Source of the DNA: an uncultured Candidatus Saccharibacteria bacterium
GTDB taxonomy: Bacteria > Patescibacteriota > Dojkabacteria > J137
NCBI GenBank assembly: GCA_964393185.1
Contig: CAYMSO010000007.1
Coordinates: 930-64,929, forward strand
Direction: 5' to 3'
Length of the DNA stretch: 64,000 nt
Part shown: piece by piece, positions 10,881 through 29,240 of the stretch
How positions within the stretch are numbered: position 1 is the first letter of the stretch
Layout of the letters: each line of letters starts with the position of its first letter
Notes under the pieces: model-generated
The model's input: the letters and a program-made list of their open reading frames with translations, nothing else
What the model was told of the DNA's origin: nothing
Database searches by the model: none
Translations under genes and position numbers: made by a program

Positions 10881-11161
10881 CTTTGATTTGTGCATACCTG
10901 TAAGGCTGCTAGGAACTTTAAGTTAATACATAATTATTAGATTTTTATTCAGTTGATTAAACATTTAGCCATGTCTATAAGTTTAAGATACAAGCTTTCA
11001 GCAGTTGGATAAATGTTGTTATAATGCTAAAATAATGGCGATTATTATGATTATACTAGCTTAGTTTTGCGATACAGCACTACTTTAAAAACTATTTGTT
11101 TCAAAATTGAAGAGTTATGTTAGCTCTGAGTTTTTGGAAATTTATGTATTGATGCCTTATA

Positions 11162-11215
11162 GGTGGTCATAGCTAACTTGGTACCTGCCTGCTATCGCAG
11201 TCAGGCACTGAACGT
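11162..11215 (+). pseudogene. duplicated 5' portion of tRNA-His (degenerate)
   Basis: 11162-11183 (ggtggtcatagctaacttggta) matches the first 22 nt of tRNA-His (11263-11284) at 20/22, exactly 101 nt upstream. A ggcactg box is also shared. There is no T-arm or 3' acceptor strand. Confidence 0.5.
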
Positions 11216-11262: not shown

Positions 11263-11339
11263 GGTGGTCATAGCTCAGTTGGTAGAGCGCCAGTTTGTGG
11301 CACTGGATGTCGAGGGTTCGAGCCCCTCTGATCACCCCA
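11263..11339 (+). tRNA. tRNA-His (anticodon GTG) with encoded G-1 and CCA
   Basis: Manual fold: g(-1)-gtggtca-ta-gctc-agttggt-agagc-g-ccagt-TT[GTG]GC-actgg-atgtc-gaggg-ttcgagc-ccctc-tgatcac-c-cca. Confidence 0.9.
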
Positions 11340-11345
11340 ATTTAT

Positions 11346-12818
11346 CTATTTCTCCACATTTTTTACGGATAACAATGTTAACCAAGGCTCCTTGAAGTTC
11401 AAGCGGATCTGCTTGTCTTCTAAAATGATGTTTTCACCAATTGCCTTAAAAAGTCGTGTACGTTCCTCCCAAGTTCCTTGCCAGAATATCTTTTCCAGAC
11501 TAAATGCATAGTCAAAGAATTTCTCAAACACATTTCGCACCTCATCACGGTTAAATCCAATACTATCCTGTATTTCGCTGAGTTCGACCTGTCTTCTGTT
11601 AAGGGGTTCACGATGTTCTTCATACTCTTCCTTGGATAATTCACCTTCCAGACGCATTGTCAGAAGCCTATCAAGCTTCTCAGAGATTTTATCGAGTTCG
11701 GCAGAGTTCTCCTTCCTTTTATTAATCTCAAAAACAAATTCTTCATCTAGCTTTCTAAGCACTATCTTCTTAAGTTTCTCTACCTGCTCCTGATTTAGTT
11801 CAACACTTTTAAGCTGCTCAACAATCATTGTTTCCATCTGGTCAACGGTTATTGGATCATTCCCGCAGTTACCGTTCTTCTTTGTGCAAACAAGATAATA
11901 GTACTCTCTACCACTCTTTTTAGTCTTTTTGTATGCAGTAATGCTAAGTCCGCATTTACCACACTTCATTAGCTTGCGATAAGGTAGATCATGTTTGCTT
12001 TGTGAAGGCTTCATTTTGTCATTAAGAATATCCTGCAAACGATACCATTGTGATTTTGAGATTAGCGGCTCCCACTTGCCGACAGTCTCAGGATAATCCC
12101 CATATCTGAATACACCGCAATAAACCGGATTCCTCAGTATTCTATGAACCATAGATTTAGTGTAAGCTTTACCTTTTTTAGTCTGCACTCCCATCTCTTT
12201 AAGTAATCTCCATGCCTGCGCACAATTCATCTTCTGATCAATAATCTTCTCAACCCACTGTGAATAAAAATGTCCCCACTTTGGATCTGGTGCAATAGTT
12301 TTAGTTCCTTTAACCTGACCGACATTTACATAGAAGGCTGGTGCAGAGGTAGGCCACTCGCCTCGCATAATCTTCTCTCTAATACCACGTTTTGTGTTGT
12401 AACTTAGCTCTTTTGAGTACTGTGAATTACTTCCTGATAAAACACCAAACATAATGTCATTTGTTGTGCTATCTAGTACCTCCATAGGTGTTCGTATCTC
12501 GATAATTTGCCTGTCAGTCAGCATCTGACCAATTATGCCGCTCTCTAACTGATTCCTGCTTATTCTATTCAAGTGCCAACAAGCAATTCGAGAACATTTA
12601 CCTGCCTTTATCTCATCAATCATTTTGTTGAATTCCTTGCGCTTATAAGGAATCTTAGCTGATTTCTCTTCTTGGAATATTTTTTTAATGGTAAGATTAT
12701 TTTTAGCAGCATACTCCTTCATTTCACGTATCTGAGCGGGAATTGAGAGTTGCTGCTTGCCTTTATCTTCGCTACTTTTGCGACAGTAAAGGAAGTACTC
12801 CTGTTTTTTTGACTCCAT
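11346..12818 (-). CDS. large serine recombinase
   Basis: Resolvase catalytic domain (YCRKSSEDKGKQQLSIPAQ; HLNRISRN), recombinase domain, zinc ribbon (CGKCGLSITAY...CTKKNGNCG) and a C-terminal coiled coil. 490 aa. Confidence 0.85.
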   Translation of the reverse strand: MESKKQEYFLYCRKSSEDKGKQQLSIPAQIREMKEYAAKNNLTIKKIFQEEKSAKIPYKRKEFNKMIDEIKAGKCSRIACWHLNRISRNQLESGIIGQMLTDRQIIEIRTPMEVLDSTTNDIMFGVLSGSNSQYSKELSYNTKRGIREKIMRGEWPTSAPAFYVNVGQVKGTKTIAPDPKWGHFYSQWVEKIIDQKMNCAQAWRLLKEMGVQTKKGKAYTKSMVHRILRNPVYCGVFRYGDYPETVGKWEPLISKSQWYRLQDILNDKMKPSQSKHDLPYRKLMKCGKCGLSITAYKKTKKSGREYYYLVCTKKNGNCGNDPITVDQMETMIVEQLKSVELNQEQVEKLKKIVLRKLDEEFVFEINKRKENSAELDKISEKLDRLLTMRLEGELSKEEYEEHREPLNRRQVELSEIQDSIGFNRDEVRNVFEKFFDYAFSLEKIFWQGTWEERTRLFKAIGENIILEDKQIRLNFKEPWLTLLSVKNVEK

Positions 12819-13026
12819 TCAATGTTGTTAATAATTTAAATATGCGGTTGTTTTCTACCGCAGTTAGTATCCATGTTGCCATAGTGTTTGATCTAGGTGA
12901 TAGTCTATTCTCTATAGGTATAAGTTAATAATTAAATAATTAAAATAAAAATAAGTAAGTATATACATAAATACCTATATAGCTTATAAGTAATATAGGT
13001 AAAGACTATAAATATAGGTTTTATTC

Positions 13027-13335
13027 TTATACTTCTTCATCTGGTGTATTATCAGGTTCTTCCCCAGACTCTACTTTGTCCCAGAATGCTTTATATTTAG
13101 CTAATAAAAAGTCCTCAAACTTTATTCTGTCTTCTTCGTTTGGTATCCAAAAACACTTCATCTTGCCGTATATAGCTGGTGGTGTAACAAATAGGCTGCC
13201 AGTTCTACGATTCTCCATTATTCGAATGTGTGTGACTCTAACGCCATAGTAATTTATAGCTGCAAGAGCTTTGATATAACCTTTGTTTTTGAGCTGTATC
13301 TCTACGGTCATTTCAGTTAAGTTAAGTTTGCTCAT
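13027..13335 (-). CDS. hypothetical protein (weak SpoVG-like resemblance)
   Basis: MTVEIQLKNKGYIKALAAINYYGVRVTHIRIMENRRTGSLFVTPPA loosely follows the SpoVG pattern (M.V......kA.asi.....v.v.dIrv......fV.mP). Tentative. Confidence 0.35.
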   Translation of the reverse strand: MSKLNLTEMTVEIQLKNKGYIKALAAINYYGVRVTHIRIMENRRTGSLFVTPPAIYGKMKCFWIPNEEDRIKFEDFLLAKYKAFWDKVESGEEPDNTPDEEV

Positions 13336-13415
13336 TTTTTATCTGTCTTAATATTTGAGCTACTATGATCTCTGCAATTACTTGCAACAGATCATCAAGA
13401 GTCTCCTGTTTTGGT

Positions 13416-13733
13416 TTAGTTTTGCTTCTTGCCATCTTTTATAAATTCTTCCCATTCTGTTGGAATGTATGCCTGCTTTCGACCCTCATCGAGATAGAAC
13501 CCCGAAACTCGTACTGCCCTAAGCACTTGTGAGCGATTCCAGACGAACTGTGGAGACCTGTAAAAGCCGTACTTGATGATGAAGTACAAAAGTAGATAAT
13601 CACCAATCAAGTTGATACTGGAGAGCTTCCTGAGAGCTTTAAAAACTCCTGAAAGCGATCTATTAGGATTGCTTGAAAGCAAATACTCCAGCTTTGGCAT
13701 TGCAGACTCCAATGACTGAACTGCACCCAACAT
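13416..13733 (-). CDS. hypothetical protein
   Basis: 105-aa ORF. No family recognised. Confidence 0.35.
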   Translation of the reverse strand: MLGAVQSLESAMPKLEYLLSSNPNRSLSGVFKALRKLSSINLIGDYLLLYFIIKYGFYRSPQFVWNRSQVLRAVRVSGFYLDEGRKQAYIPTEWEEFIKDGKKQN

Positions 13734-13830
13734 AATTTAAAAATAAAAATTTAAGTTGGTGCGATTATGCCAAGCTAGGAGCGTAAAGTCAGTGAATACC
13801 TAGTGGAACATTTGTGGAATTCTGGTGATA

Positions 13831-15126
13831 CTAATTTGTAGTTACTATTAGACCGTAACCGTATTTTGTTGAAGATTGGATTAGCTTCTTTAAAGCCTCT
13901 TTATTACTTGTGTCTTGAAATTTATCGATGAGATTTCTGCGAACGTATTTGATACTTTCACCGTATGCTTCATGTGCAGGCACGTCGTCAAACCTAGGGT
14001 TATAAATACCAATTGCTTCAGCAATATCTTGATAGCCTACAAAATTACCTTTATTCACAATAAGTAATTTAATAAACTTCCCTCCCTGACTTGCGGGACT
14101 TAAGGTTATATTTTCGCCTTTAAAGTTGAGTAGACTATTCGCTGGTTGATATTCAAGTCCTCCATATTCAACAGTACCTTTCAACATATCAACTAATTCA
14201 GCAATTATTGTACTGTTCTCGAGTTCAACTTCTTCTTTAAGAATCGCATATAAATCCTCAACTCTACTAAAATGAATTTCAAATTTCAGAGACTCACCAT
14301 TATTAAACTTCGAATGGAAATCTGACAATGCTTTGCGATATTCACCTAAGTATACTTTTAGTCCCTGAATAGTAATTGCCCTCATGCGAATTAAATACTC
14401 TACTACACTAGTGTACTTAATCTTTACTACTAGATATGGCTTCCCGAATTCATCATCTTCATTAGATTCATAGAAATCATATGATCTCACACTTAAATCT
14501 TGTTGCTTTATAAATTTAAAAATTTTTGATCTGCTACCTTCTCCTTTAACCTCAGTACGGAATAGATGCAAAAGTTTGATTACTTCAAGAGTCTCAGAAC
14601 TTGTTAGAGATTCCAGGTTAATACTCGGGTCTGTAAAAGTAACAGCAGGTAGAGTAATTGAAGTGAATATAGAAAGATCTTTTTCCGTTTTTCCAACTGC
14701 TTGATCTTCAACTTCGTTCTCAACTATATATTCATCTAGTAAATCTTTAGTTTCAATAATTCTAAATTCAAATGAACCATTTTTTAAATCTTTTATTACA
14801 TTTGGAAACTGTAATATTAGCCATTTAAAGTCAATCTCCTCATCTGGAATGTTAAAGATAAATTTATTATCCTCGAACCAAAATGACTTACTGATAGCAA
14901 ATTGTTTAAGTTGGAGTGGAATGCAAATAACTTGTCTATCGGTTAAAGGTGGTGTGGCTATGTAGTTGTCGGGTTCTATCATTGCGCCAAAAATTGCATT
15001 CGGAACGTAATCTTTATTCCTCTCTAAATAGGAGAGAAGGGAATTAAATTTTAGAATTGTTAGTAATTGTTCTTTGTTTAGCGTGTTCAAAGTATTACTA
15101 AATAATATATATAAATATTTATACAT
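13831..15126 (-). CDS. hypothetical protein with C-terminal OmpR/PhoB-type winged-helix
   Basis: The last ~90 aa (GYQDIAEAIG...ESIKYVRRNLIDKF...STKYGYGLIV) follow the trans_reg_C pattern (...vdvhi.rLRkKl....i.tv.g.GY.l). The N-terminal ~330 aa are unrecognised. Confidence 0.5.
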   Translation of the reverse strand: MYKYLYILFSNTLNTLNKEQLLTILKFNSLLSYLERNKDYVPNAIFGAMIEPDNYIATPPLTDRQVICIPLQLKQFAISKSFWFEDNKFIFNIPDEEIDFKWLILQFPNVIKDLKNGSFEFRIIETKDLLDEYIVENEVEDQAVGKTEKDLSIFTSITLPAVTFTDPSINLESLTSSETLEVIKLLHLFRTEVKGEGSRSKIFKFIKQQDLSVRSYDFYESNEDDEFGKPYLVVKIKYTSVVEYLIRMRAITIQGLKVYLGEYRKALSDFHSKFNNGESLKFEIHFSRVEDLYAILKEEVELENSTIIAELVDMLKGTVEYGGLEYQPANSLLNFKGENITLSPASQGGKFIKLLIVNKGNFVGYQDIAEAIGIYNPRFDDVPAHEAYGESIKYVRRNLIDKFQDTSNKEALKKLIQSSTKYGYGLIVTTN

Positions 15127-15295
15127 CTTTTAGATTTTCAATACTGCCAACTGTTACTTCAATTTTCTCTCATTCCCATCATTTTTTATCTCCGGGATGC
15201 GACCTAAATGCCTTCCGGGCAATCATATTGAAGATTGTGACTTTTTATTCAACTGCGACATTTCAAGGCTACAAATTCGTCACAATTCTCAGTTT

Positions 15296-17539
15296 TCAGC
15301 TTGCATTTATGGCTTGTTCCAAAACCTGATAATGCTGTGGGAAAACAGCCTTTATCATTTCCAAAAGGTAATTTGTATTTTTACGTGCTTCTTCAACTAA
15401 AGACGGATCAAATCCCTTTCCGGTAATATGCGATTGATCATTGCAAAACTTGTAAATCGCAGTTTTTTTATTCTCATCAAAATCGATGCCTTGCAGTTTA
15501 GTGTAAACGGACTCGCTGTTAGGAACCATAAACATAAGGAATGTGTCTAGAACTTTACGTGCTACATTAGGCATATGGTAGGCAGATTCAATAGTCCCCT
15601 CATCAGGACCGAACTGATAGAGTACCTTAAACAGGTATTGGTATTCACTATGATAATCTTGAAGTAAATTATCTAACTTATCAATTGAAGCCTGTCTTTG
15701 TTCATTAACGTATTTATTTTTAATCATGTAATAACTTGCTTTAGGCTTATTACTGCGATGTTCCAACCAATTTAATAATAATCGTAAAAATTCATAGTTA
15801 TGCGTAAACACAAACATCTGCATGCAGTTGCTTACAGCATTTTTTATAAAAGAGAACGCTTGGAATAAAGAATTTGAGTCTAAGCTGGATATAGGATCGT
15901 CAATCACAATAATACCTTCCTCAGATTTAAAATTCTGATCCTTTAGTTGAATTACAAAGTAAACAAAAGCTATGGCTGTCTTCTCACCTTCACTCAACAT
16001 TGTTGCAGGTTTATCTCCTCTAAGAATAAGATAACCTTCACCATCAACTTTAAATACAAGTTCGCTTCTTCCTAAGAATGTTTCTAAGTATGAATTTATC
16101 TCGTCACAGGCTTTATGGGCGCTTGTTACCAATTTTTTATTTTCACTAATCCTGTTTTGAATAGTTTGAATTGATTCATTTTTTCCAGCTTCACCATAAG
16201 TAAGAGTTCTTTGTAACTCTTCACACCCCTCCAGTTCCTTGTCGATTGCAACGACTTCATCATATATCGTACTTAAAAAATGCTGTTCTATCGCATCTTT
16301 AGCAGACTGTTTTGCTTTATCAAACTCTTGAGTCTTCTTATTATGAGAGTTAATTATGGTATTAAAACTTTCGGTTTTAGCTAAAAGGTGACTAACGTCT
16401 ACTAATTTTTGAGGGATTAGTTTTTCGGTAGTTTTCGTCTTCTTTGACTCCAATTCTTTACCAACTTCTGCAATTGCTGAGAGTATTTTAGTTTTTTCTA
16501 AAGTAAAAGACCCAAATTCATTTCTGTAGCTATCCTCTAATTCTTTATAAAAATTTGCTACATCTGGTGCATTTACAGATTCAAGACCGCGATAGAGTGA
16601 TCGTAATCTTTCTAACAATGTATCTATCTCACCTTTTAACTTTTGATCAGCATCGTTAAAGTGATTTGAGAGATCTTTAAGCCTATTTTCCGCTACGTTA
16701 TTTCCACAAAATTCACATGACTTACTATCGTGTTCCTTATGTATTTGCATTCCAGTTTCAACCCAGTTTGATATATCGGCATTGTCTTTAAGTCTTTCAA
16801 TCACAATAGCTTCAACAGTTTTACCTAACAAGGACTTTATTTCAGTTTGTATGCTAGCTAGGGCGACTTCAAATTTCTCACGATTATCCGCACTTTTAGG
16901 CAACTTAATTTCACTTATTTCCGGTTTAACATCTTGAACTACAGTTTGAAGATGTCTGTTAAGATCTTCTTCGCTTAATTCTGCTTTTCCACGCATCTTT
17001 TGAAATGCTTTCTCAGCATGTGTTTTTGTATAGTTTCTAATTAAGGAGCCTTTTGTACCAACACTAATCGTTTTCGCGATCTCAGTGAATTTGCTACCTC
17101 TAGTTTTTTGAAGGCCTGCCATATTGTCTTTACATTCCTTTACTTCAGTATGTACCTTTGTCAGTTTTGCTTCGTCTTTTTCAATTTGCTCAACTAACTC
17201 CTGGTTCTCTTCTCCCAAAATAAATATGCCTTCAGCTTTACCTTCAAGTAATTTAATATTTTTATTTACATAATCCTGATTAAAGATTCTAATCTTATGT
17301 GGATATCGATCTTGAAGTTTATATTTGTTGCTTTTATCATCCTGCACTTCAAATTCTGCATCAGGATATTCTGTGTTTTCTAGATTACTTAAAGCGTAGA
17401 ATAAACGGGTAAGTGTAGTTTTACCGCAACCATTCCAACCATAAATCAGATTAAACTGTTTAAACTCAGGCATAGAGCTGTCCCACTTAAAATCTTCAAA
17501 GATGCCAAATTTTTTTATTTTATTTATACGTTTAATCAT
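15296..17539 (-). CDS. RloC/PrrC-family (AAA_13) ATPase with coiled-coil CxxC zinc-hook insert; candidate anticodon nuclease
   Basis: Walker A (GWNGCGKTTLTRLF), a long helical insert with SCEFCGNN (a CxxC hook as in Rad50/RloC), signature LSEGEKTAIAF, Walker B IIVIDDPISSLD and FTHN. The C-terminal region has NVARKVLDTFL...NDQSH. It overlaps hsdS by 4 nt. Confidence 0.6.
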   Translation of the reverse strand: MIKRINKIKKFGIFEDFKWDSSMPEFKQFNLIYGWNGCGKTTLTRLFYALSNLENTEYPDAEFEVQDDKSNKYKLQDRYPHKIRIFNQDYVNKNIKLLEGKAEGIFILGEENQELVEQIEKDEAKLTKVHTEVKECKDNMAGLQKTRGSKFTEIAKTISVGTKGSLIRNYTKTHAEKAFQKMRGKAELSEEDLNRHLQTVVQDVKPEISEIKLPKSADNREKFEVALASIQTEIKSLLGKTVEAIVIERLKDNADISNWVETGMQIHKEHDSKSCEFCGNNVAENRLKDLSNHFNDADQKLKGEIDTLLERLRSLYRGLESVNAPDVANFYKELEDSYRNEFGSFTLEKTKILSAIAEVGKELESKKTKTTEKLIPQKLVDVSHLLAKTESFNTIINSHNKKTQEFDKAKQSAKDAIEQHFLSTIYDEVVAIDKELEGCEELQRTLTYGEAGKNESIQTIQNRISENKKLVTSAHKACDEINSYLETFLGRSELVFKVDGEGYLILRGDKPATMLSEGEKTAIAFVYFVIQLKDQNFKSEEGIIVIDDPISSLDSNSLFQAFSFIKNAVSNCMQMFVFTHNYEFLRLLLNWLEHRSNKPKASYYMIKNKYVNEQRQASIDKLDNLLQDYHSEYQYLFKVLYQFGPDEGTIESAYHMPNVARKVLDTFLMFMVPNSESVYTKLQGIDFDENKKTAIYKFCNDQSHITGKGFDPSLVEEARKNTNYLLEMIKAVFPQHYQVLEQAINAS

Positions 17540-18666
17540 ATGTAGAAGTACTTGTCTAAGAGTCCTGACTTAGTTTTTACATAAGCTGTCTGTTTTTCAG
17601 TATTTAAAGACTGTAGTTTTTTAAAGATTCTTAATGAATTTAGAAATTTAGCTTGATCACTTAATGGTGGTACTGGTACTTCGATTGCCTCAAGTTTGCT
17701 CAGCCCTAAAGTTTTATTTCTACCGGCACTCCCAGGGGATGCTTTTCTGATATCCTCTAAACCTTTTGTGGAAAGGAAGTAAAACCATAAAAACTCGGGT
17801 TCAATAATTTCACTATTACAAACACAACTTATGAATCTATGTGATCCATATCTCTGATGATCTTCTGACTGTACAACAGCGATAGCTCCTTCCCAGGCAA
17901 AAACATTGCTAAATAACAAATCACCTTCATGTATCTCATAAAGTTGTTTTGTACCTATATTTTCAGCTTTTAATGATGGTTTATGGAAGGTACCTTTACC
18001 GAAACTTCTTATTCCGAGTTCTGGGTACTCACTTCCTTTTTGAACAACTACTTTTCTTCTTACAATTGGTGCAATTTCAGACATTTTATAAGTCTTGGCT
18101 TTTGTATTTAGTTCTTCGAAAAGGACATGGAGGATTTTGTTTCCGTGGATTAATAATGCGTTATCATTAGATTCAAAGCCTTTTAAATAATTAAGGCTAT
18201 TGGAGACAAAGGTCGCAACCTCTTTCTGATAATCCAAAGACGGAACATCCAATTCGAAATTCAAAAATTTATCTTCATCAAGATATTTACGGTTTGTAGT
18301 TCCTGAGCTAGCTTTAGAACAAATATCTATGAAGCTAGAACTACTTGTAAATAGATTAAACCAGTTAATATCTATCAATTTCGGATCAAAATTGAAAGTC
18401 CAAAAATTTCCAGTAATTATCGCTCCATCTAGTTGCATTGGTACTATGCCAAATGCACCATTTCTAGCGTCAATTTTAGACAATAAAAACTGATTTTTTT
18501 TAATTAGGAATTGCTTCTTTGTACCTATCTCTCTTCCCGGAGTTCTGTCCCTGAGAGCTAAGCCTTTATTGTTTGTTCTTATGGTAACCCTTGAATAACT
18601 TATGTCATCCACAATACTGATAGGTTCTTTTATTCTTTTTAAGAATTCCCCGATTTTTCTAGTCAT
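17536..18666 (-). CDS. hsdS: type I restriction-modification specificity subunit HsdS
   Basis: 376 aa, two-TRD architecture, positioned between hsdM and the RloC-like gene. Overlaps hsdM by 8 nt. Confidence 0.8.
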   Translation of the reverse strand: MTRKIGEFLKRIKEPISIVDDISYSRVTIRTNNKGLALRDRTPGREIGTKKQFLIKKNQFLLSKIDARNGAFGIVPMQLDGAIITGNFWTFNFDPKLIDINWFNLFTSSSSFIDICSKASSGTTNRKYLDEDKFLNFELDVPSLDYQKEVATFVSNSLNYLKGFESNDNALLIHGNKILHVLFEELNTKAKTYKMSEIAPIVRRKVVVQKGSEYPELGIRSFGKGTFHKPSLKAENIGTKQLYEIHEGDLLFSNVFAWEGAIAVVQSEDHQRYGSHRFISCVCNSEIIEPEFLWFYFLSTKGLEDIRKASPGSAGRNKTLGLSKLEAIEVPVPPLSDQAKFLNSLRIFKKLQSLNTEKQTAYVKTKSGLLDKYFYI

Positions 18667-20098
18667 TTATTAAACTTTTTTTAAATTCCTCAAATAATTT
18701 ATTAGTTGAATTAACAAGTTCACTTATCTTTTGTAGATGAGTTTCTATTGATTCTTCCTTCAAATCTTCATTAGTCTTAGGGTTTTTAATATCTAAGTTA
18801 TAGTTTTGAGATTGAATCTCTTTCACTTCAATGCGCCATGCGTACTGATTTGTTTCTCGGTTTTTCCACCATTCTTTGAGATTCTTAAATTCCTCTTTTT
18901 GTATTGGCTTTGTTTTTGAGTACGATCTATAACCATCAGGATATGGTAACTCGTAATACCATATAAATTTAGTTGGCTCGCCTTTATTTAGAAATATTAG
19001 ATTAGTTTTTATTTCAGTGTAGGGTGAGAAAACTCCGGCGGGTAGGCGGACAATAGTATGTAGATTAAACTTCTCCAGTAGTTCCTGTTTTATTCTCGTC
19101 TTCACGCCTTCGCCAAATAGAAAACCATCCGGCAATACAACGCCTGCACGTCCTCCATCCTTAAGCATCTCCATGATTAACACCAAGAACAAGTCTGCTG
19201 TCTCTTTTGTCTGATATTGTTTGGGGAAGCCTTTAGCAATATTGTCGGCTTCTATTCCGCCAAAAGGAGGATTTGTTACAACAACATCAACTCTATCCTT
19301 TGCAGTAATTTCCCGTAGAGTAACTGCAAGTGAATTGTCTCTTCTTACATTTAATGGAGCTTCTATGCCATGTAAAATAAGATTTGTCATCGCAAGCATA
19401 TGAGGTAGTGGCTTCTTTTCAATGCCATATATAGAACTTTGCAAAACCTTCTCATCTTCAGGAGTTTTTACATCATTCTCACGAACATGAGTCAATGAAT
19501 CGATCAAAAATCCTCCAGTACCACAAGCTGGGTCTAAAATCTTTTCGCCAAGTTTTGGATTAACCATTTCAACAATGAATTTTGTTACAGCTCTTGGGGT
19601 ATAGAATTCTCCAGCATTACCAGCACTCTGTAAATCTTTCAGTAGCTTCTCGTAAATGTCATTGAAGATATGCGTTTGTTTGCTGTTGTTGAAATCAATC
19701 TCGTTATCGATCACATTAATAACCTGCCTCATGAATGTTCCCGACTTCATGTAGTTATAGCTGTCTTGGAATACTTCTTTAACAATGTAGCCACGAGGGT
19801 CGTCACCTTCTTGCCAATTCATCTCTTTTAATCCCGGGAAGAGCTTATTATTAATAAAATCGATCAATTCATCGCCTGTAATACCAGCATCATCCTTAGC
19901 CCAATTTCGCCACCTAAGCGATTCTGGCAGCGGTGATTTGTAATTTGAGTCTAGTAGCTCATATTCTCGCTCTTTATCATCAAATATTTTTAGGAAGAGC
20001 ATCCAAGTAAGCTGTGAGATACGTTGCGCATCACCATCTACACCTGTATCTTTGCGCATTATGTTTTGAATCGTTTTTACCAGATTTGTTAGTGCCAT
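18659..20098 (-). CDS. hsdM: type I restriction-modification N6-adenine DNA methyltransferase HsdM
   Basis: HsdM N-terminal domain, AdoMet motif ILDPACGTGGFL, and catalytic VVTNPPFGG. Confidence 0.9.
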   Translation of the reverse strand: MALTNLVKTIQNIMRKDTGVDGDAQRISQLTWMLFLKIFDDKEREYELLDSNYKSPLPESLRWRNWAKDDAGITGDELIDFINNKLFPGLKEMNWQEGDDPRGYIVKEVFQDSYNYMKSGTFMRQVINVIDNEIDFNNSKQTHIFNDIYEKLLKDLQSAGNAGEFYTPRAVTKFIVEMVNPKLGEKILDPACGTGGFLIDSLTHVRENDVKTPEDEKVLQSSIYGIEKKPLPHMLAMTNLILHGIEAPLNVRRDNSLAVTLREITAKDRVDVVVTNPPFGGIEADNIAKGFPKQYQTKETADLFLVLIMEMLKDGGRAGVVLPDGFLFGEGVKTRIKQELLEKFNLHTIVRLPAGVFSPYTEIKTNLIFLNKGEPTKFIWYYELPYPDGYRSYSKTKPIQKEEFKNLKEWWKNRETNQYAWRIEVKEIQSQNYNLDIKNPKTNEDLKEESIETHLQKISELVNSTNKLFEEFKKSLIND

Positions 20099-20104
20099 AT
20101 TTGT

Positions 20105-22501
20105 TTACGCTTGCATATAAATAAATTGCTTCATCTCCTGAACAGCTTCTACATACTGTTCTCTACCACCAAAGAATTGAATAATCTCAATTGGTGAACC
20201 GTATTGATTTATTGGCTGAACTTTTAAGACTTCCATATCCTCAAGTGGCTTCAATCCTTCGTCTGCATATTTCTCTAACAATGCCTCCAAAACCTTCCTA
20301 GCTTCTTCGCCATACTTGGCAAAATAATGTCGCTTTTTTACACTCTCAGCTCTCTCACTTCTTGTAAGTGCAGGTTTGTCAAAAGCAATATGCAAAACCA
20401 TATCGAAAGGATCAAGGTCTTTGCCTACTTCTCGTTTTAATTCATCAAAAAACACACCTTGCGCTTCAAGTTCTTCAATAACTGCAGTTTTGCGTTCTGC
20501 ATCCTGCCAGTCATTTAAGAATTCATCTAAAGATCGATACTTTTGCAGTAAACTCTTCTTGGTATAATCTTTCAGCGATTCGGTGGTGAGTTTACCATTC
20601 TCATCGTAGTATTGGACAGTCTCGTTAATGACCTGCACGTCAACACCTTCAACGTAATACTTACGCGGTCTATCGTTAACTTCTCCAGTTATTGAGATAT
20701 CTGGCTTTTCTACAGCAAGTTGAGCTACTTTTATAACCTCAGCTTCCTGTTCTTCTTCTGGTGACACCACCATCTCTTCCTCGCTTCCTTCAAAATTTGC
20801 TTCTTCGCCTTCAGTCTTCTCAACGCTGCTGATTGCTGGTCCATCGAATGCTGGATCTGCAAATAATTTAGTAGCCTGCCTAAAATCCATAATAGTGAAG
20901 TAGTATTTACCAAAATCAGGATCAATTCTCGTACCACGCCCTATAATCTGTTTAAATTCAGTCATTGAATTGATATTGCTATCAAGGACTATTAGCTTAC
21001 AAGTTTTTGCATCAACTCCAGTGGTTAGAAGCTTAGAAGTAGTTACAACTACCGGATACTTCTTCTCAGGGTCTATGAAGTTGTCTAGTTCATTTTTACC
21101 TTCTTCATTATCTCCGGTTATTCGCATAACATATTTTGCATTCTCAGAGACTAGATCGCCATTCTCATTAATTATTGTCTGTCGCATTCGTTCAGCATGT
21201 TCTATATCTACACAAAAGACTATTGTCTTAGCAAAGCGATCGGTATTCTTTAAGAACTCTGTGATCTTTTTAGCAACTGTTTTGGTTCTCTCATCAAGAA
21301 CAATTCTCCTATCAAAATCTTTTACATTGTATTCTTCGTCAGGAATCTCATTACCATATTTGTCGATTTGTCCTTCAAATGGTCTAAATCCACCTGCATC
21401 TTTATCTAAAGTAATACGCATAACTTTGTATGGTGCAAGGAATCCATCTTCAATCCCTTGTTTTAGCGAGTAGGTGTAAATTGGTTCTCCGAAGTATTCA
21501 ATGTTATCAGCACCTTTCTCCTGTTTGGGGGTAGCGGTCATTCCTATTTGAGTAGAAGCGTTGAAGTATTCCAAAATCTCTCGCCATGCAGAATCATCTG
21601 CTGCACTTCCTCTATGAGCTTCGTCAATAATGATCAAATCAAAAAAATCTCTAGGGAATTGCTTATAAATCTTTTGATACTCCTCAGTTCCAGTAATGCT
21701 TTGATAAAGCCCAACAAATACTTCATATGCTGCAAATTTTGTAATCTCAAATTTACCTCGATTGATCTTTGTAGCTTTATCTCCAAACGGTGCAAAGTCC
21801 CGTCTTAATGGATCATCTACAAGAATGTTCCTGTCAGCAATAAATAGAATTCTCTTCTTAGCTCTAGACTTCCAAAGTCTCCACATAATCTGGAATGCGG
21901 TGAACGTCTTGCCAGTTCCGGTAGCCATTACGAGCAATAACCTGTCTTTGCCTTTAGCAATTGCTTCAACAGTTCTATTAATCGCAACTTCTTGGTAGTA
22001 ACGAGGTTTTTTGCTTGTTGGAGTGTAGTAGTAATCCTGTGTAACTATTTGCTCATCTTCAGTTGTTAATCCCTTCCAAATTTTGAATCGTTGGTAAAGT
22101 TCTTCGGGAGTAGGGAATTGCTGCAAAGATATCTCACGTTCAATAGCACCTTCAGTTTTGGTTTTATCATGTTCAACAAACCCATCACCGTTACTTGAGA
22201 ATACAAAAGGGATATCAAGAATTTCGGAATATTCCATGCCCTGCTGCATACCTGCTCCAACGCTGTGGTTATTGTCTTTGGCTTCAATTATTGCAATTGG
22301 AAGGTTTGATTTGTAGTAAAGGATGTAGTCTGCCTTTTTACCTTTACCTCGCTTTACAGTCTCACCTTTTACTATGATACGACCATCTGTAAAATATACC
22401 TGTTCCCTGATTTGCTTCTGTAGATCCCAACCTGCTTGTTGTAATGCAGGTAATATGAATTTAGTACAAATGTCCGCTTCGCTTAGTTGTTTTTTATCCA
22501 T
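20105..22501 (-). CDS. hsdR: type I restriction endonuclease subunit HsdR
   Basis: N-terminal PD-(D/E)xK (ADYILYY...IAIIEAKD), helicase motifs MATGTGKT and IIDEAHRG, and the motif VI region QIIGRGTR. 798 aa. Confidence 0.9.
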   Translation of the reverse strand: MDKKQLSEADICTKFILPALQQAGWDLQKQIREQVYFTDGRIIVKGETVKRGKGKKADYILYYKSNLPIAIIEAKDNNHSVGAGMQQGMEYSEILDIPFVFSSNGDGFVEHDKTKTEGAIEREISLQQFPTPEELYQRFKIWKGLTTEDEQIVTQDYYYTPTSKKPRYYQEVAINRTVEAIAKGKDRLLLVMATGTGKTFTAFQIMWRLWKSRAKKRILFIADRNILVDDPLRRDFAPFGDKATKINRGKFEITKFAAYEVFVGLYQSITGTEEYQKIYKQFPRDFFDLIIIDEAHRGSAADDSAWREILEYFNASTQIGMTATPKQEKGADNIEYFGEPIYTYSLKQGIEDGFLAPYKVMRITLDKDAGGFRPFEGQIDKYGNEIPDEEYNVKDFDRRIVLDERTKTVAKKITEFLKNTDRFAKTIVFCVDIEHAERMRQTIINENGDLVSENAKYVMRITGDNEEGKNELDNFIDPEKKYPVVVTTSKLLTTGVDAKTCKLIVLDSNINSMTEFKQIIGRGTRIDPDFGKYYFTIMDFRQATKLFADPAFDGPAISSVEKTEGEEANFEGSEEEMVVSPEEEQEAEVIKVAQLAVEKPDISITGEVNDRPRKYYVEGVDVQVINETVQYYDENGKLTTESLKDYTKKSLLQKYRSLDEFLNDWQDAERKTAVIEELEAQGVFFDELKREVGKDLDPFDMVLHIAFDKPALTRSERAESVKKRHYFAKYGEEARKVLEALLEKYADEGLKPLEDMEVLKVQPINQYGSPIEIIQFFGGREQYVEAVQEMKQFIYMQA

Positions 22502-22703
22502 TGGCAGGTTTTAACGAGATAAGATTATCAACAGTTACACCAAGTGCTTTGGCAATCTTCTGTAAATGTTCAAGTCTAGGGCTAACAATTACTCCAATCT
22601 CAATTTTTGTGAGCGTTGAGTAACTAACACCCGATAATTTGGCTAAATCCCTTTGAGTCAGGCTTTTTTGCTTCCTTAGTTGTTTTATGTTTGCTCCTAG
22701 CAT
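22494..22703 (-). CDS. XRE-family HTH protein (possible controller) heading the type I operon
   Basis: IKQLRKQKSLTQRDLAKLSGVSYSTLTKIE is a classic Cro/C1 HTH. Its stop overlaps the hsdR start by 8 nt. Confidence 0.8.
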   Translation of the reverse strand: MLGANIKQLRKQKSLTQRDLAKLSGVSYSTLTKIEIGVIVSPRLEHLQKIAKALGVTVDNLISLKPANG

Positions 22704-22781
22704 GGTGTAAAACTATCCAATAATTGATATTCTACTACAACTATTCGTACAAATAAATGCTAATAGTATTAAGAGGGGAAT

Positions 22782-23276
22782 TTAAAGTTTGAATTGCAAA
22801 CTTTCAGCTCTACAGAAATCCCAAACACCCATACAACGTATATTCAGTTCAGTACATAAATTTGGAAGGCGGGGTATATTTAGTGATGAGTTCGCTGGAT
22901 TATTCTCAGTGGTAAAAACTACTAATTGGTTTGCTTTAGAGTAACAAGCGATAACCGGATCTGCAGCATTCTTATGCCCTGAAGCCAAAAGGTTATATTT
23001 ATTTACAAGCTTCTCTATTTCAGTTGAGGTGACATCATCGACTTCTAAAAAGATTTTTTTGTTGTCCTTTAACCATTCTTTAAATGATTTATCCTCTTGT
23101 TCTTCTTTCATGAGTTCTTCATAAACGTCAATGACTGAAACCATTCTGCCACTGTTAACAAGCACGTTAAAGTGTTCCCAGAGTCCAGGTAAAATATCTT
23201 TCGGGAAGCGACCTTTCTCTTCCTTCCAGAGATCAAAAATTACATTTGTATCAAAACAATACTTATAATCAGCCAT
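22782..23276 (-). CDS. DUF4411 (PIN-like) protein
   Basis: YCFDTNVIFDLW... AADPVIACYSKANQLVVFTTE ... IPRLPNLCTELNIRC follows the DUF4411 pattern (Y.lDtN... aDpfvIA.A...vVT.E...kIP.vC...gi.c). Confidence 0.6.
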   Translation of the reverse strand: MADYKYCFDTNVIFDLWKEEKGRFPKDILPGLWEHFNVLVNSGRMVSVIDVYEELMKEEQEDKSFKEWLKDNKKIFLEVDDVTSTEIEKLVNKYNLLASGHKNAADPVIACYSKANQLVVFTTENNPANSSLNIPRLPNLCTELNIRCMGVWDFCRAESLQFKL

Positions 23277-24441
23277 AGTTAGACATTAGAGATTCAATAA
23301 TTGGGGTGTGCTTTATATTTGTATCTAAATATTTTGACACTTCGTAGTAAGTTATTTTATTCACCCGGTAAGCATCAAAAACGTCTAAAACAAATCCCCT
23401 GCTATTCCTGGAGATCTCATTTCTCTGATATAGGTGGTAGCCTTTAGGTATAAATATCTTCTTATCTTTCTGCCTCTCTTCATATTCAGCAACCAATTCC
23501 ATAATATGCTTTCTTCTATTTTTGAATTCGCTTTCACCCATAAACCCATTATCGTATAGTCTTCTGATAATCACTTCTTCACTAACGCAGAGGTCTCTTG
23601 CAATTTTTTTTATATACTTATCTCGACTATCTTTATCGCTGAAATTTACAAAGTTTTTAAGCTCTCCCAGTGGCACAAGGAAGTTACCAGCAAAAGCATT
23701 AGCAAATACCTCCTCAGGCGTGGTTTTGTCATTGTATACATTGTCGTCAAAGATTTCGAAGTACCCATCATCTTTTAAAACAACATGAGCTATCTCATGG
23801 AATAAAGAGAATGTCTTACCTGCATCACTATCATTTTTGTTTAATGTGATTACTACATACTCACCATCTGTTAAACAAAATGCCCTTCCGTCCTTCTTTT
23901 TGTCGAAAGAATACTCAACAATGTAAAATCCCTTACTTTCAAGTAAGTCTCTCCAATTCTCGAATCCAGCCTTTTTGTCCTTCCAAGTTTTCTGTGTCTC
24001 GACATCCAGACCTATCCACTTTCTAAACTCTAGTGCTGCATTTACAGGATCCGTAAATGAATTTTTTAGTTCGTTAATAGCTTCCCAATTAGGTTTCCGA
24101 CCTTCCAAATCTGCAGCAAGTGCCACGATTCGTTCTGCGTTATCCAATGCTTCAAATAATTTGCGTGATTCTTCGTTCTGGAGTGATTCTTCATAGATAC
24201 GTCTGAATTTTTTAGGAAGTGTTTTTTTGTGTGGAATATTCTCTAGGAATAAGATTGTCCAAGGACGTCCGTAGGTCTTTGCAATTTTACGTGCTGTTTT
24301 AATATCTATTTCTATGCCTTCCTCTTCCCATAGTTTCAAAGTAGCTACATCAATCTTTAACTTCTTTGCGGCAATATCTAACGACATGTTCAAGTGAAGT
24401 CGTAATTCTTTGAGAATTGTGGGTCTAGCTTTTATTGCCAC
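23269..24441 (-). CDS. XRE HTH + ImmA/IrrE-family zinc metallopeptidase (DUF955) fusion
   Basis: N-terminal HTH (LRLHLNMSLDIAAKKLKIDVATLKLWE) and the metallopeptidase HExxH motif FSLFHEIAHVVL. Overlaps the DUF4411 gene by 8 nt. Confidence 0.75.
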   Translation of the reverse strand: MAIKARPTILKELRLHLNMSLDIAAKKLKIDVATLKLWEEEGIEIDIKTARKIAKTYGRPWTILFLENIPHKKTLPKKFRRIYEESLQNEESRKLFEALDNAERIVALAADLEGRKPNWEAINELKNSFTDPVNAALEFRKWIGLDVETQKTWKDKKAGFENWRDLLESKGFYIVEYSFDKKKDGRAFCLTDGEYVVITLNKNDSDAGKTFSLFHEIAHVVLKDDGYFEIFDDNVYNDKTTPEEVFANAFAGNFLVPLGELKNFVNFSDKDSRDKYIKKIARDLCVSEEVIIRRLYDNGFMGESEFKNRRKHIMELVAEYEERQKDKKIFIPKGYHLYQRNEISRNSRGFVLDVFDAYRVNKITYYEVSKYLDTNIKHTPIIESLMSNYG

Positions 24442-24649
24442 TTTAGAATTGAATAAAAATTTTACTATCTATATTATGACAAAAGTTCGCAAGCAACTAA
24501 AGTGAAATAATCTTGAGGTAGTTCTAGCCAATATAAATCTTAGCTTAATTAAAGCTCATTTTTGTTTTAAATAATCATCAACTGCGCATTGATTTTTAAA
24601 GTCTTTACGGGTTAAAATTTAAGCGTATAAATAATTTAGGGGAGCCATG

Positions 24650-24886
24650 CTAACGGATCGCTTTACTATTAGTTCGTTCCAAAGTATTTTGAAGAGGTGA
24701 CCCCAAATAAGAATTTAACCCTTCGTAAGCCTCAAAATGTTCCTGTAATGTATATCCAGTAACGATTTTATCCTTCATTGTGATGTTCAGAAATACTAAT
24801 TTGACCAATTGGTCGACTAAGTAGGCATTATCTGTTGTTTCGATAGTACCAGTAATGTCTTTGAAGAAGTTCAGTAAGGTTACATA
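24650..24886 (-). pseudogene. possible C-terminal gene remnant (~78 codons, no credible start)
   Basis: My translation: ...LLNFFKDITGTIETTDNAYLVDQLVKLVFLNITMKDKIVTGYTLQEHFEAYEGLNSYLGSPLQNTLERTNSKAIR*. It is open only from an in-frame TAG, and the only Met gives 39 aa. No family recognised. Confidence 0.2.
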
Positions 24887-29235: not shown

Positions 29236-29240
29236 AGCAT

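What the first reader, a model, noticed from the sequence alone, without database searches (positions are those of the whole stretch)
13027..15126. Three uncharacterised genes between the recombinase and the RloC/type I operon: candidate new island function
There are three genes:
- A 431-aa protein whose only recognisable part is a C-terminal OmpR-type winged helix.
- A 105-aa protein with no recognisable features.
- A 102-aa protein with faint SpoVG-like similarity.

They are co-oriented with known defence genes and immediately adjacent to them. By position they could be a recombination directionality factor or regulators of the element. They could also be an undescribed sensor/effector module riding with the R-M/anticodon-nuclease system. 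Nothing in the N-terminal 330 aa of the large protein matches a catalytic motif I know.
Basis: inference. Interest (0 to 1): 0.6.

Follow-up and report, generated by a model that had tools for sequence, protein, structure and literature searches.

The report
Backbone genes of a defence-carrying island
The three unknown genes (there is also a fourth, 37-codon one) are not a new defence system: they are the conserved core, next to a serine recombinase, of a rare mobile island of tiny-genome (CPR) bacteria that inserts at tRNA ends and swaps different anti-phage systems in and out.

Summary
The three ORFs exist exactly as described. A fourth, 37-aa ORF (13322-13435) overlaps the two small genes and was missed.

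- The 431-aa protein ends in an OmpR/PhoB-type winged helix at fold level. Its first ~315 residues stay unexplained.
- The 102-aa protein is a divergent SpoVG-family member.
- The 105-aa protein has a confident all-helical model with no structural relative.

In 12 of 12 independent elements the order is: variable protein, 105-aa family, tiny ORF, SpoVG-like, large serine recombinase. The recombinase abuts a tRNA or tmRNA 3' end wherever that flank was read. The upstream cargo differs each time (type I, IIG, IIE or ISP R-M, McrBC, Gabija-like, DndB-like). The window's island spans about 11340-24706 (13.4 kb), bounded by a 7-bp repeat of the tRNA-His end.

In 8 of 9 further Patescibacteria genomes a SpoVG-like gene also sits just upstream of a serine recombinase. 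Many of the island SpoVG-like proteins end in the host SSB C-terminal tip (IDPDDIPF); the window's copy does not.

Best reading: this is the recombinase's accessory module, controlling excision and handling the excised DNA. It is not defence cargo, and the individual roles are inferred, not shown. New variant of a known kind; moderate interest.

The parts
13831..15126 (-). 'Position-1' protein, 431 aa. The N-terminal ~315 aa are of unknown fold; the C-terminus is an OmpR/PhoB-type winged-helix DNA-binding domain.
   Evidence: ORF. No family hit. AF2 and Foldseek. Only two relatives found (L001 409 aa at 47%, L007 398 aa at 30%). This slot holds proteins unrelated by BLAST or hhalign in other elements.
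13416..13733 (-). 'Mid' protein, 105 aa, all-alpha, new family. The most conserved accessory gene of this subfamily.
   Evidence: AF2 pLDDT 89 with six helices. No PDB or BFVD fold match. No PDB or Pfam sequence match. 33 clusters in 5.8 billion proteins. dN/dS 0.11.
13322..13435 (-). Overlooked tiny ORF, 37 aa (MARSKTKPKQETLDDLLQVIAEIIVAQILRQIKNEQT). It overlaps both neighbours.
   Evidence: an ORF at this position in all 10 loci compared, 8 with a shared helix motif. ORFs of 53 and 60 aa occupy the same slot in L028 and L029.
13027..13335 (-). SpoVG-like protein, 102 aa, with an acidic tail. The SSB-type tip seen in relatives is degenerate here (ends ..NTPDEEV).
   Evidence: Profile hits PDB SpoVG at 1e-7. 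4 of 7 relatives hit Pfam SpoVG. Tails. Adjacency to the recombinase across the phylum.
13764..13792 (-). Promoter-like site with an extended -10 (TGGCATAAT) upstream of the 105-aa gene.
   Evidence: The block is conserved in L001 and L007.
12913..13019 (.). Cluster of four ACCTATA repeats in both orientations, enclosing an AT-rich tract (about 12935-12962). Candidate operator or iteron set.
   Evidence: 4 of the 16 ACCTATA matches in the 64-kb window fall in these 107 bp. L001 has 4 copies in the same place; other elements have AACTATA-type variants.
12843..12862 (-). Terminator-like hairpin followed by a T-rich run, just upstream of the recombinase start.
   Evidence: Conserved in L001 and L007. 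Replaced by a three-helix covarying element in six other loci.
11346..12818 (-). Large serine recombinase, 490 aa.
   Evidence: Pfam Resolvase, Recombinase and Zn_ribbon_recom. 84-85% identical to the L007 and L001 enzymes and 38-45% to the others.
11264..11340 (+). tRNA-His, whose 3' end (..GATCACCCCA|A) is the left junction (attL).
   Evidence: tRNA-His also abuts the recombinase in L005 and L008, tmRNA in L003 and L013, tRNA-Glu in L014, and a tRNA of undetermined identity in L016.
24616..24706 (.). Far-end block (right junction, attR) ending ..GGTGACCCCA|A. The 7-bp ACCCCAA repeats the tRNA-His end.
   Evidence: 80% identity to L001 2622-2712, ending sharply at TGGGGT. Sequence. Analogous 8-9-bp repeats of the RNA 3' end in L005 and L013.
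22494..22703 (-). Small XRE-type HTH protein, 69 aa. A backbone gene at the far side of the main cargo slot.
   Evidence: 87% aa identity to L001 although the downstream R-M genes differ; 43% to L005.
15296..22501 (-). Cargo slot 1: RloC-like AAA_13/PDC-S06 ATPase plus type I hsdS, hsdM and hsdR.
   Evidence: No DNA homology to L001 in this interval.
22782..24441 (-). Cargo slot 2: DUF4411 PIN-like protein plus HTH-ImmA/IrrE peptidase.
   Evidence: Absent from L001 between the XRE gene and the end block.

Best explanation
The genes are the accessory module of the large serine recombinase. Together with it they form the conserved backbone of a ~13.4-kb integrative island (window ~11340-24706). 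The island has inserted at the last bases of tRNA-His and carries anti-phage systems as exchangeable cargo.

Shown:
- The gene order (variable protein, 105-aa 'mid', tiny ORF, SpoVG-like, recombinase) is invariant in 12 independent elements.
- The cargo between the 431-aa gene and a small XRE gene is swapped.
- The island ends repeat the tRNA or tmRNA 3' terminus.

Inferred working model:
1. The SpoVG-fold protein is a nucleic-acid-binding partner of the recombinase. In most relatives its acidic tail ends in the host SSB interaction tip. It would either act as the directionality cofactor, or coat and present the excised DNA and recruit host replication or recombination proteins.
2. The 105-aa and 37-aa proteins are subfamily-specific cofactors of phage origin and are further candidates for the directionality factor.
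3. The 431-aa protein is an island-specific OmpR-type DNA-binding regulator or initiator. It probably binds the ACCTATA repeats beside an AT-rich tract in front of the recombinase gene.
4. A terminator-like hairpin keeps recombinase expression separate from the upstream genes.

None of the four proteins is predicted to be an anti-phage effector.
For: Synteny:
- 12 of 12 elements keep the order, while recombinase identity falls to 38%.

Cargo differs in each element:
- type I R-M plus RloC-like (window);
- type IIG R-M plus an OLD/UvrD pair (L001);
- MrcB_N plus HNH-WYL (L003);
- Dcm plus EcoRII-C (L005);
- type I R-M (L007);
- McrBC (L013);
- DndB/GmrSD-like plus MazG-like (L014);
- type ISP R-M plus PIF1 (L021).

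Backbone and boundaries:
- Window-L001 DNA homology covers only the backbone.
- Junction repeats match the tRNA or tmRNA 3' end.
- Distribution is patchy: 5 of 221 genomes in the class, each in a different genus.

SpoVG-like protein:
- A SpoVG-like gene lies directly upstream of a serine recombinase in 8 of 9 further Patescibacteria genomes.
- SpoVG-like tails such as TIDPDDIPF, INPDDIPF and IDPDEFPF match host SSB tails VIDPNDLPF and TIDPDDLPF.
- SpoVG proteins bind DNA, ssDNA and RNA (PMC3688583, PMC4959528, PMC11086051).
- The SSB C-terminal tip recruits partner proteins (PMC7145534, PMC7913777).

Directionality factors:
- Factors for serine integrases have no common fold, and some are scavenged phage replication proteins, including an SSB (PMC11795197, PMC12286644).
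- 'Mid' homologs sit in phage-like replication modules (PrimPol-DnaB, DnaB_C, ERF).

Other:
- OmpR-type fold of the 431-aa C-terminus.
- ACCTATA repeat cluster.
- Purifying selection.
Against: - No biochemical or read-level evidence of excision was obtained. Only low-depth contigs were available and they showed no joints. No RNA runs were found.
- Which protein, if any, is the directionality factor is not resolved.
- The window's own SpoVG-like protein lacks the SSB-type tip, as largely do L001 and L007.
- The N-terminal ~315 aa of the 431-aa protein could hide an enzymatic or sensor function. That part of the AF2 model has low confidence.
- The position-1 slot holds proteins with no detectable similarity across subfamilies. 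It is often followed by a terminator-like hairpin. It may therefore be semi-independent of the core.
- Some serine-recombinase elements need no directionality factor at all (SCCmec, discussed in PMC12286644).
Confidence: 0.6

Rival explanations
1. Replication module. The 431-aa protein is an origin-binding initiator, the ACCTATA repeats plus AT-rich tract are the origin, and the SpoVG-like protein is a functional SSB analogue. It would bring host primosome or replisome proteins to the excised circle, so the island is a small integrative replicon. Directionality is handled elsewhere or is not needed.
For: - Repeat cluster next to an AT-rich stretch.
- SSB-type tip on SpoVG-like proteins.
- 'Mid' homologs lie next to helicase and primase genes in phage-like contigs.
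- SCCmec-type serine-recombinase islands carry a conserved replication operon (PMC7581432).
- Minimal satellites replicate after excision (PMC10803314).
Against: - No helicase, primase or recognisable Rep protein lies in any of the 12 islands.
- Rep_trans is absent from all 14 element-bearing genomes.
- No Rep-type Pfam hit in any position-1 protein.
- No circular form was seen.
- The position-1 protein is not conserved across the family, whereas the repeats are broadly similar.
Confidence: 0.2
2. Purely transcriptional switch. The XRE protein, the OmpR-type protein and the SpoVG-like protein form a lysogeny-like regulatory circuit. It sets expression of the cargo and of the recombinase, without contacting the recombinase itself.
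For: - Two of the proteins have classic transcription-factor folds.
- SpoVG acts as a regulator in Firmicutes (PMC3688583).
- Operator-like repeats and a terminator-like hairpin precede the recombinase gene.
- A covarying structured leader precedes the recombinase in six relatives.
Against: - It does not explain the SSB-type tail.
- It does not explain the strict pairing of SpoVG-like genes with serine recombinases across distant Patescibacteria.
- It does not explain the 'mid' and tiny proteins.
Confidence: 0.1
3. Undescribed defence or sensor-effector module. The 431-aa protein senses infection and the small proteins execute or regulate an abortive response alongside R-M and RloC.
For: - Location inside a defence-rich island.
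- The N-terminal ~315 aa are unexplained.
- The position-1 slot is hypervariable, as is often seen for proteins in arms races.
Against: - Linkage is to the recombinase, not to any defence system.
- The module is present with eight different cargos.
- No PADLOC hit and no catalytic domain.
- The 'mid' family occurs in phage-like replication regions.
- DNA homology marks it as backbone.
Confidence: 0.07
4. Inert relic of a prophage early region that merely hitch-hikes next to the recombinase.
For: 'Mid' homologs occur in phage-like contigs.
Against: - Purifying selection.
- 12 of 12 elements keep the gene order over deep divergence.
- Overlapping, translationally coupled small ORFs are retained.
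Confidence: 0.03

Closest known systems
SCC/SCCmec-type islands (CcrAB large serine recombinases with a conserved accessory operon)
   Same: - A serine-recombinase-driven chromosomal island inserted at the 3' end of a conserved gene.
- Variable cargo.
- A conserved set of small or medium accessory genes next to the recombinase that act on the excised DNA (PMC7581432).
   Different: - SCC elements encode a helicase and a primase/polymerase; none is present here.
- Here the target is a tRNA or tmRNA end, not rlmH.
- There is a single recombinase.
- The accessory proteins (SpoVG-fold, new all-alpha fold, OmpR-type) are unrelated to those of SCC elements.
Phage satellites and minimalist islands with defence hotspots (P4-like, PICI, PICMI)
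   Same: - A small integrated element with a short conserved backbone (integrase, regulator, excision/replication factors).
- A hotspot where anti-phage systems are exchanged (PMC9122126, PMC10803314).
   Different: - Those elements use tyrosine integrases and encode a primase or Rep plus helper-phage hijacking functions.
- No helper phage, packaging signal or primase is evident here.
- Satellite status was not tested.
Large serine integrase / directionality-factor pairs of phages (TG1 gp25 SSB-like, Bxb1 gp47, SPbeta SprB)
   Same: - A large serine recombinase with a Zn-ribbon/coiled-coil region.
- Small element-encoded proteins nearby.
- There is precedent that the cofactor is a scavenged DNA-replication protein, including an SSB (PMC11795197, PMC12286644).
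   Different: - No interaction or activity has been shown here.
- The candidates have a SpoVG fold or a new helical fold, not an OB fold.
- The elements are islands without virion genes.
SpoVG family (PF04026; PDB 2i9z, 2ia9, 2i9x)
   Same: The profile of the 102-aa family aligns over ~90 residues with SpoVG structures at E=1e-7. It shares the motif ..A.A.I.....I.G.R.....G.LFV.PPS.
   Different: - The window's protein does not itself reach any Pfam score.
- The island proteins carry an acidic C-terminal extension, in many cases ending in an SSB-type tip.
- They are mobile-element genes paired with a recombinase, not the chromosomal spoVG.
OmpR/PhoB-type winged-helix effector domains (Trans_reg_C)
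   Same: The fold of residues ~320-430 matches: a beta-sheet platform, three helices and a wing. TM is 0.70-0.80 to PhoB, VicR, YycF, PhoP and GlnR DNA-binding domains.
   Different: - No Pfam Trans_reg_C sequence match.
- No receiver domain.
- The N-terminal ~315 aa are unrelated to anything found.

Membership tests
Large serine recombinase (the neighbouring gene that defines the element) | Resolvase catalytic domain plus Recombinase domain plus Zn-ribbon/coiled-coil region | tested here: met
   Pfam E-values 5.8e-20, 1.5e-15 and 4e-08.
OmpR/PhoB winged-helix DNA-binding domain (431-aa protein, C-terminus) | Fold: N-terminal beta-sheet, three-helix bundle with recognition helix, C-terminal beta-hairpin wing | tested here: met
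   AF2 pLDDT 80-92 for residues ~320-430. About 45 OmpR/PhoB-family DNA-binding domains are top Foldseek hits, with TM 0.65-0.80 over ~110 columns.
OmpR/PhoB winged-helix DNA-binding domain (431-aa protein, C-terminus) | Sequence match to Pfam Trans_reg_C | tested here: not met
   No Pfam family at E<=10.
Two-component response regulator | N-terminal receiver domain with phospho-acceptor Asp | tested here: not met
   No Response_reg hit. Foldseek alignments cover only the C-terminal domain.
SpoVG family (102-aa protein) | Sequence or profile similarity to PF04026 and to solved SpoVG structures | tested here: met
   The family profile hits 2i9z, 2ia9 and 2i9x at 1e-7 to 4e-6. 4 of 7 members hit Pfam SpoVG, best 1.3e-8. 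The window's own sequence alone gives no Pfam hit.
Bacterial SSB | OB-fold ssDNA-binding domain | tested here: not met
   The domain is SpoVG-like, not PF00436.
Bacterial SSB | Acidic C-terminal tip (..D-D-[IL]-P-F) that recruits partner proteins | tested here: inconclusive
   - Present in L013, L005, L003, L017 and, more loosely, L021 and L028.
- It matches host SSB tails.
- It is absent or degenerate in the window's protein (..NTPDEEV).
Recombination directionality factor for a serine integrase | Binds the cognate integrase (DBD2/coiled-coil junction) and switches it to attL x attR recombination | not testable with these tools
   Only gene linkage is available. The family has no common fold (PMC11795197).
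Known anti-phage defence systems (PADLOC-DB) | HMM match of any of the three proteins to a defence-system component | tested here: not met
   0 families at E<=1 for all three. The neighbouring RloC-like gene hits PDC-S06 at 9e-256.
Rolling-circle Rep_trans initiators (considered for the position-1 slot) | Match to PF02486 | tested here: not met
   No match in any of 14 element-bearing genomes or in position-1 proteins.
Phage satellites (PICI/P4/PICMI) | Integrase plus regulator plus own primase/Rep, and helper-phage-dependent packaging | tested here: inconclusive
   The integrase is a serine type and regulators are present. No primase or Rep was found. Helper dependence is not testable here.

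The most novel reading that the evidence does not exclude
SpoVG-fold proteins bearing an SSB-type C-terminal tip are the general cofactor of a phylum-wide clade of tRNA-end-targeting large serine recombinases in Patescibacteria. They would act as directionality factor, as an SSB substitute that hands the excised DNA to host replication or recombination proteins, or as both.

In the Dojkabacteria subfamily, a new-fold 105-aa protein and a 37-aa peptide would complete the complex. A hypervariable OmpR-type protein would set element-specific control.
Probability: 0.3. Interest if true: 0.7.

Novelty: new variant of a known kind. Interest (0 to 1): 0.55.

Why it matters
- **Few mobile elements are known for these bacteria.** CPR/Patescibacteria have almost no characterised mobile elements and no genetic tools. 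This analysis defines an island family with mapped ends, a tRNA-His/tmRNA/tRNA-Glu-targeting serine recombinase and a conserved accessory module. It is a natural starting point for integration vectors.
- **It bears on directionality factors.** The field is actively looking for the missing directionality factors of serine integrases. A short list of three small candidates sits next to the enzyme, one with a SpoVG fold and an SSB-type tail.
- **It clarifies defence-island structure.** The 'unknown genes next to defence genes' are backbone here. The true cargo slot lies between the 431-aa gene and the XRE gene. Unknown genes in that slot in sister elements (for example L016 and L029) are therefore better candidates for new defence systems than the trio itself.

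Tried and rejected
- **Family searches.** Pfam, PHROGs, NCBIfam and PADLOC on the three proteins gave nothing. Per-member scans of the 'mid' and SpoVG-like alignments added only SpoVG.
- **Homolog searches for the 431-aa protein.** The word-index search and the exhaustive 1.84-billion-representative search each found only one relative.
- **Profile-to-PDB searches.** The 431-aa and 'mid' families gave only insignificant hits, such as CheW at 0.006.
- **Foldseek of the 'mid' model.** No match in PDB or BFVD; best E=1.8.
- **hhalign between the two largest position-1 groups.** No similarity. A shared winged helix in the other groups therefore remains my reading of sequence patterns only.
- **tblastn of all three proteins against 50,697 GenBank phages.** No match. 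IMG/VR scan with the 'mid' profile: none.
- **Reads.** Four DNA runs hold the locus only as low-depth Logan contigs with no joints, so excision could not be assessed. No RNA run was found.
- **Rolling-circle Rep hypothesis** (suggested by earlier scan notes on other CPR elements). PF02486 is absent from 14 genomes. The three neighbours tested of SpoVG-like genes in other phylum members have no PDB relatives.
- **Long direct repeats at the island ends.** None was found. The ends came instead from homology to L001 and from the tRNA terminus.
- **Toxin-antitoxin reading of the overlapping 105-aa and 37-aa genes.** Considered and set aside: there is no supporting homology, and the pair is always embedded between the same neighbours.
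Full report
**1. What is there**

The minus strand carries ORFs of 431 aa (13831-15126), 105 aa (13416-13733) and 102 aa (13027-13335).
- Downstream lies a 490-aa large serine recombinase (11346-12818; Resolvase + Recombinase + Zn_ribbon_recom). Its stop codon is 6 nt from the CCA end of tRNA-His (11264-11339, plus strand).
- Upstream, on the same strand, lie:
  - an RloC-like AAA_13 ATPase (PADLOC PDC-S06, 9e-256);
  - hsdS, hsdM and hsdR;
  - a 69-aa XRE protein;
  - a DUF4411 PIN-like protein;
  - an HTH-ImmA/IrrE peptidase.
- Housekeeping genes resume at 25142 with a GHMP kinase and ArgRS.
- None of the three proteins matches Pfam, PHROGs, NCBIfam or PADLOC.

A fourth ORF was overlooked. 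A 37-aa frame (13322-13435) starts inside the last codons of the 105-aa gene and ends just past the ATG of the 102-aa gene. An ORF occupies the same slot in all 12 related elements. Its sequence was read in ten of them; eight share a helix motif such as IAEIIVAQILRQ / LASIITSQIKRG / IAKIICNQIKRG, while L003 and L013 fit only loosely.

**2. The proteins**

*431-aa protein.*
- It has only two detectable relatives in 5.8 billion clusters and 1.84 billion representatives. These are L001 (409 aa, 47% identity) and the L007 group (398 aa, 30%).
- An AF2 model built on three sequences is poor overall (pLDDT 60) but good for residues ~320-430 (pLDDT 80-92).
- Foldseek places that part among OmpR/PhoB effector domains (3zq7, 1gxp, 2hwv, 2pmu; TM 0.70-0.80; probability 1.0).
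- The first ~315 residues remain unexplained.

*102-aa protein.*
- It is a divergent SpoVG-family member.
- A 7-sequence profile hits the three solved SpoVG structures at 1e-7 to 4e-6.
- Four of the seven members reach Pfam SpoVG on their own.

*105-aa protein ('mid').*
- It gives a confident six-helix model (pLDDT 89).
- It has no structural neighbour in PDB or BFVD and no sequence family.
- The family is small: 33 clusters.

All of the genes are under purifying selection. dN/dS is 0.11 for mid, 0.13 for the SpoVG-like gene and 0.04 for the recombinase.

**3. Context elsewhere: the decisive evidence**

I followed the mid family to other assemblies and genomes and found 12 independent elements: the window, L001, L003, L005, L007, L013, L014, L016, L017, L021, L028 and L029.
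- Every one has the order: variable 'position-1' protein, mid, tiny ORF, SpoVG-like, large serine recombinase, all on one strand.
- Named records are Candidatus Dojkabacteria MAGs plus one MAG labelled Saccharibacteria. All fall in the same GTDB class as the window's 1.35-Mb genome.
- The recombinase gene abuts or overlaps a small-RNA gene wherever that flank was read:

| RNA gene at the recombinase 3' end | Loci |
|---|---|
| tRNA-His | window, L005, L008 |
| tmRNA | L003, L013 |
| tRNA-Glu | L014 |
| tRNA (type not determined) | L016 |

. L017 has no tRNA or tmRNA after its recombinase. L001, L007 and L021 end inside or just after the recombinase gene, and L028 and L029 were not scanned.

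The genes upstream of the module differ in every element:

| Locus | Cargo |
|---|---|
| window | type I R-M + RloC-like |
| L001 | type IIG R-M + OLD/UvrD (Gabija-like) |
| L003 | MrcB_N + HNH-WYL |
| L005 | Dcm + EcoRII-C |
| L007 | type I R-M |
| L013 | McrBC |
| L014 | DndB/GmrSD-like + MazG-like |
| L021 | type ISP R-M + PIF1 |

. L016 and L029 carry mostly unknown proteins.

The family is rare and patchy. It occurs in 5 of 221 genomes of the class, each in a different genus.

**4. Island limits**

DNA comparison of the window with L001 shows homology in three places only:
- from the recombinase through the 431-aa gene, ending about 10 bp upstream of its start codon;
- at the 69-aa XRE gene (80% nt, 87% aa), although its downstream R-M genes are unrelated;
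- over a 91-nt non-coding block, 24616-24705.

The non-coding block ends abruptly at ..GGTGACCCCA|AATAAG. The tRNA-His junction reads ..GATCACCCCA|ATTTAT, so ACCCCAA is repeated at both ends.

The island is therefore about 11340-24706 (13.4 kb). Its main cargo slot lies between the XRE gene and the 431-aa gene. A second cargo pair (DUF4411 + ImmA/IrrE) lies beyond the XRE gene.

Analogous repeats occur in relatives:
- L013: the last 9 nt of tmRNA recur just outside the McrBC cargo.
- L005: the last 8 nt of tRNA-His recur 11 kb upstream.

**5. Clues to mechanism**

(a) *SpoVG-like genes and serine recombinases are linked across the phylum.*
- A search of 401 Patescibacteria genomes with the SpoVG-like profile found nine more genomes.
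- In eight of them the gene lies on the same strand within about 0.9 kb upstream of a serine recombinase.
- None of them has mid.

(b) *SSB-type tails.*
- Many island SpoVG-like proteins end in ..TIDPDDIPF, ..INPDDIPF, ..IDPDEFPF or ..INPDEIPF.
- SSBs of the same genomes end in ..VIDPNDLPF..TIDPDDLPF or ..DDDLPF.
- The SSB C-terminal tip is the docking site for genome-maintenance partners (PMC7145534, PMC7913777).
- SpoVG proteins bind dsDNA, ssDNA and RNA (PMC3688583, PMC4959528, PMC11086051).
- The window's copy (..NTPDEEV) and its two closest relatives have lost most of this tip. This is a caveat.

(c) *Mid in phage-like contigs.* Distant mid homologs lie in two phage-like contigs, just after replication genes (PrimPol-DnaB fusion; HTH_36 + DnaB_C) and near ERF. 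Those contigs have no SpoVG-like gene. Directionality factors of serine integrases have no common fold, and some are scavenged phage replication proteins, including an SSB (PMC11795197, PMC12286644).

(d) *Repeats.* The 208-bp spacer between the SpoVG-like gene and the recombinase holds four ACCTATA repeats, around and beside an AT-rich run. That is 4 of 16 matches in the whole 64-kb window, and L001 has the same pattern. Other elements have AACTATA-type variants.

(e) *Hairpin.* A terminator-like hairpin plus T-run (12843-12862) lies just before the recombinase start and is conserved in L001 and L007.

(f) *Promoter.* Mid has its own conserved extended -10-like box. In other elements the position-1 gene is often followed by a hairpin.

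**6. Interpretation**

The trio, really a quartet, belongs to the island backbone and is functionally tied to the recombinase, not to the defence cargo. I commit to an accessory module for excision/integration control and for handling the excised DNA.
- The SpoVG-like protein is the most general recombinase partner. It could be the directionality cofactor, an SSB-like adaptor, or both.
- Mid and the tiny protein are subfamily-specific cofactors.
- The 431-aa protein is an element-specific DNA-binding regulator or initiator acting at the repeats.

That the module is backbone is well supported. The role of each protein is inference.

The main rival is a true replication module (initiator, origin, SSB analogue). 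It is weakened by several results:
- no helicase, primase or Rep protein is present, and Rep_trans is absent from 14 element-bearing genomes;
- Pfam scans found no Rep-type domain in the position-1 proteins;
- three other upstream neighbours of SpoVG-like genes in further phylum genomes have no PDB relatives.

A stand-alone defence system is unlikely. A purely transcriptional circuit does not explain the SSB-type tail or the phylum-wide pairing.

**7. Comparison with known systems**

It works most like the accessory operons of SCC-type serine-recombinase islands (PMC7581432). It also resembles the minimal backbones of phage satellites that carry defence hotspots (PMC9122126, PMC10803314). It shares none of their proteins.

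I found no paper in the held library describing such elements in Patescibacteria. Earlier notes of this scan describe many CPR serine-recombinase elements at tRNA ends that contain SpoVG-like genes. I treated these as leads:
- I confirmed the SpoVG-recombinase pairing independently.
- I did not find their Rep_trans-type gene here.

**8. Limits**

- No excision or expression data could be obtained.
- No complex prediction was possible.
- The N-terminal two-thirds of the 431-aa protein remain structurally unresolved.
- Similarity of position-1 proteins across subfamilies is not demonstrable.

Noticed in passing
L003:10982-11071, L005:10939-11030, L013:11012-11106, L014:10984-11075, L017:3063-3156, L021:10943-11031: A conserved three-helix element lies just upstream of the recombinase start in six related islands.
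- Order: A5'-B5'-C5'-B3'-A3'-C3', then a U/T-run.
- Helices A (9 bp) and C (10 bp) pair fully in all six, with compensatory changes. Helix B pairs with unrelated sequences.
- MFE folds flip between A+B and C. It is therefore a pseudoknot, a two-state terminator switch, or an ssDNA structure.
- No Rfam family matches.
- The window has only a simple hairpin in this position.
   Followed up: partly
L003:12549-12614, L013:12586-12639, L014:12555-12608, L008:3543-3554; window 11340-11348: In relatives the recombinase ORF runs 12-66 nt into the tRNA or tmRNA gene. Its last codons would therefore change between the integrated and excised states. In the window the ORF stops 6 nt short of tRNA-His.
   Followed up: partly
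window 11145-11183: A 39-nt copy (77% identity) of the tRNA-His upstream region and 5' part lies 101 nt upstream of the real gene, on the side away from the island. It may be a scar of earlier recombination at this tRNA.
   Followed up: no
L017:1815-2087 and L017:4700-12402 (also L018, L019): One element has a second SpoVG-like gene (90 aa; Pfam SpoVG 9e-5) directly upstream of mid. No tRNA follows the recombinase. Instead come HTH_17, DUF4357, an R-M methylase/S pair and Fic. Whether it is integrated elsewhere, tandem, or a circle was not resolved.
   Followed up: partly
L032 (G000:C2), L033, L035 versus L030, L031, L034: These small genomes carry SSB genes with two tail types..IDP[ND]DLPF and ..DDDLPF/..EDLPF. 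G000 has five SSB-domain matches in 1.35 Mb.
   Followed up: no
L016:2005-8800 and L029:3023-7898 (both in genome G106): One genome holds two islands of this family. Their cargo slots contain mostly proteins with no Pfam or PADLOC match; one hits PDC-M04A at 5e-9. These are better candidates for unknown defence genes than the trio. In L016 the gene caller recorded no recombinase gene, but its N-terminal catalytic region (MEYFCYCRKSSES..) reads open; whether the full gene is intact was not checked.
   Followed up: partly
window 15296-17539: The RloC-like ATPase matches PADLOC PDC-S06 almost end to end (9e-256) but PrrC only weakly (5e-12). Calling it RloC/PrrC-type needs its own check.
   Followed up: no
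window 4063-4135 and 29240-29314: Two tRNA-Arg(TCT) genes lie within 25 kb of each other in a 1.35-Mb genome.
   Followed up: no
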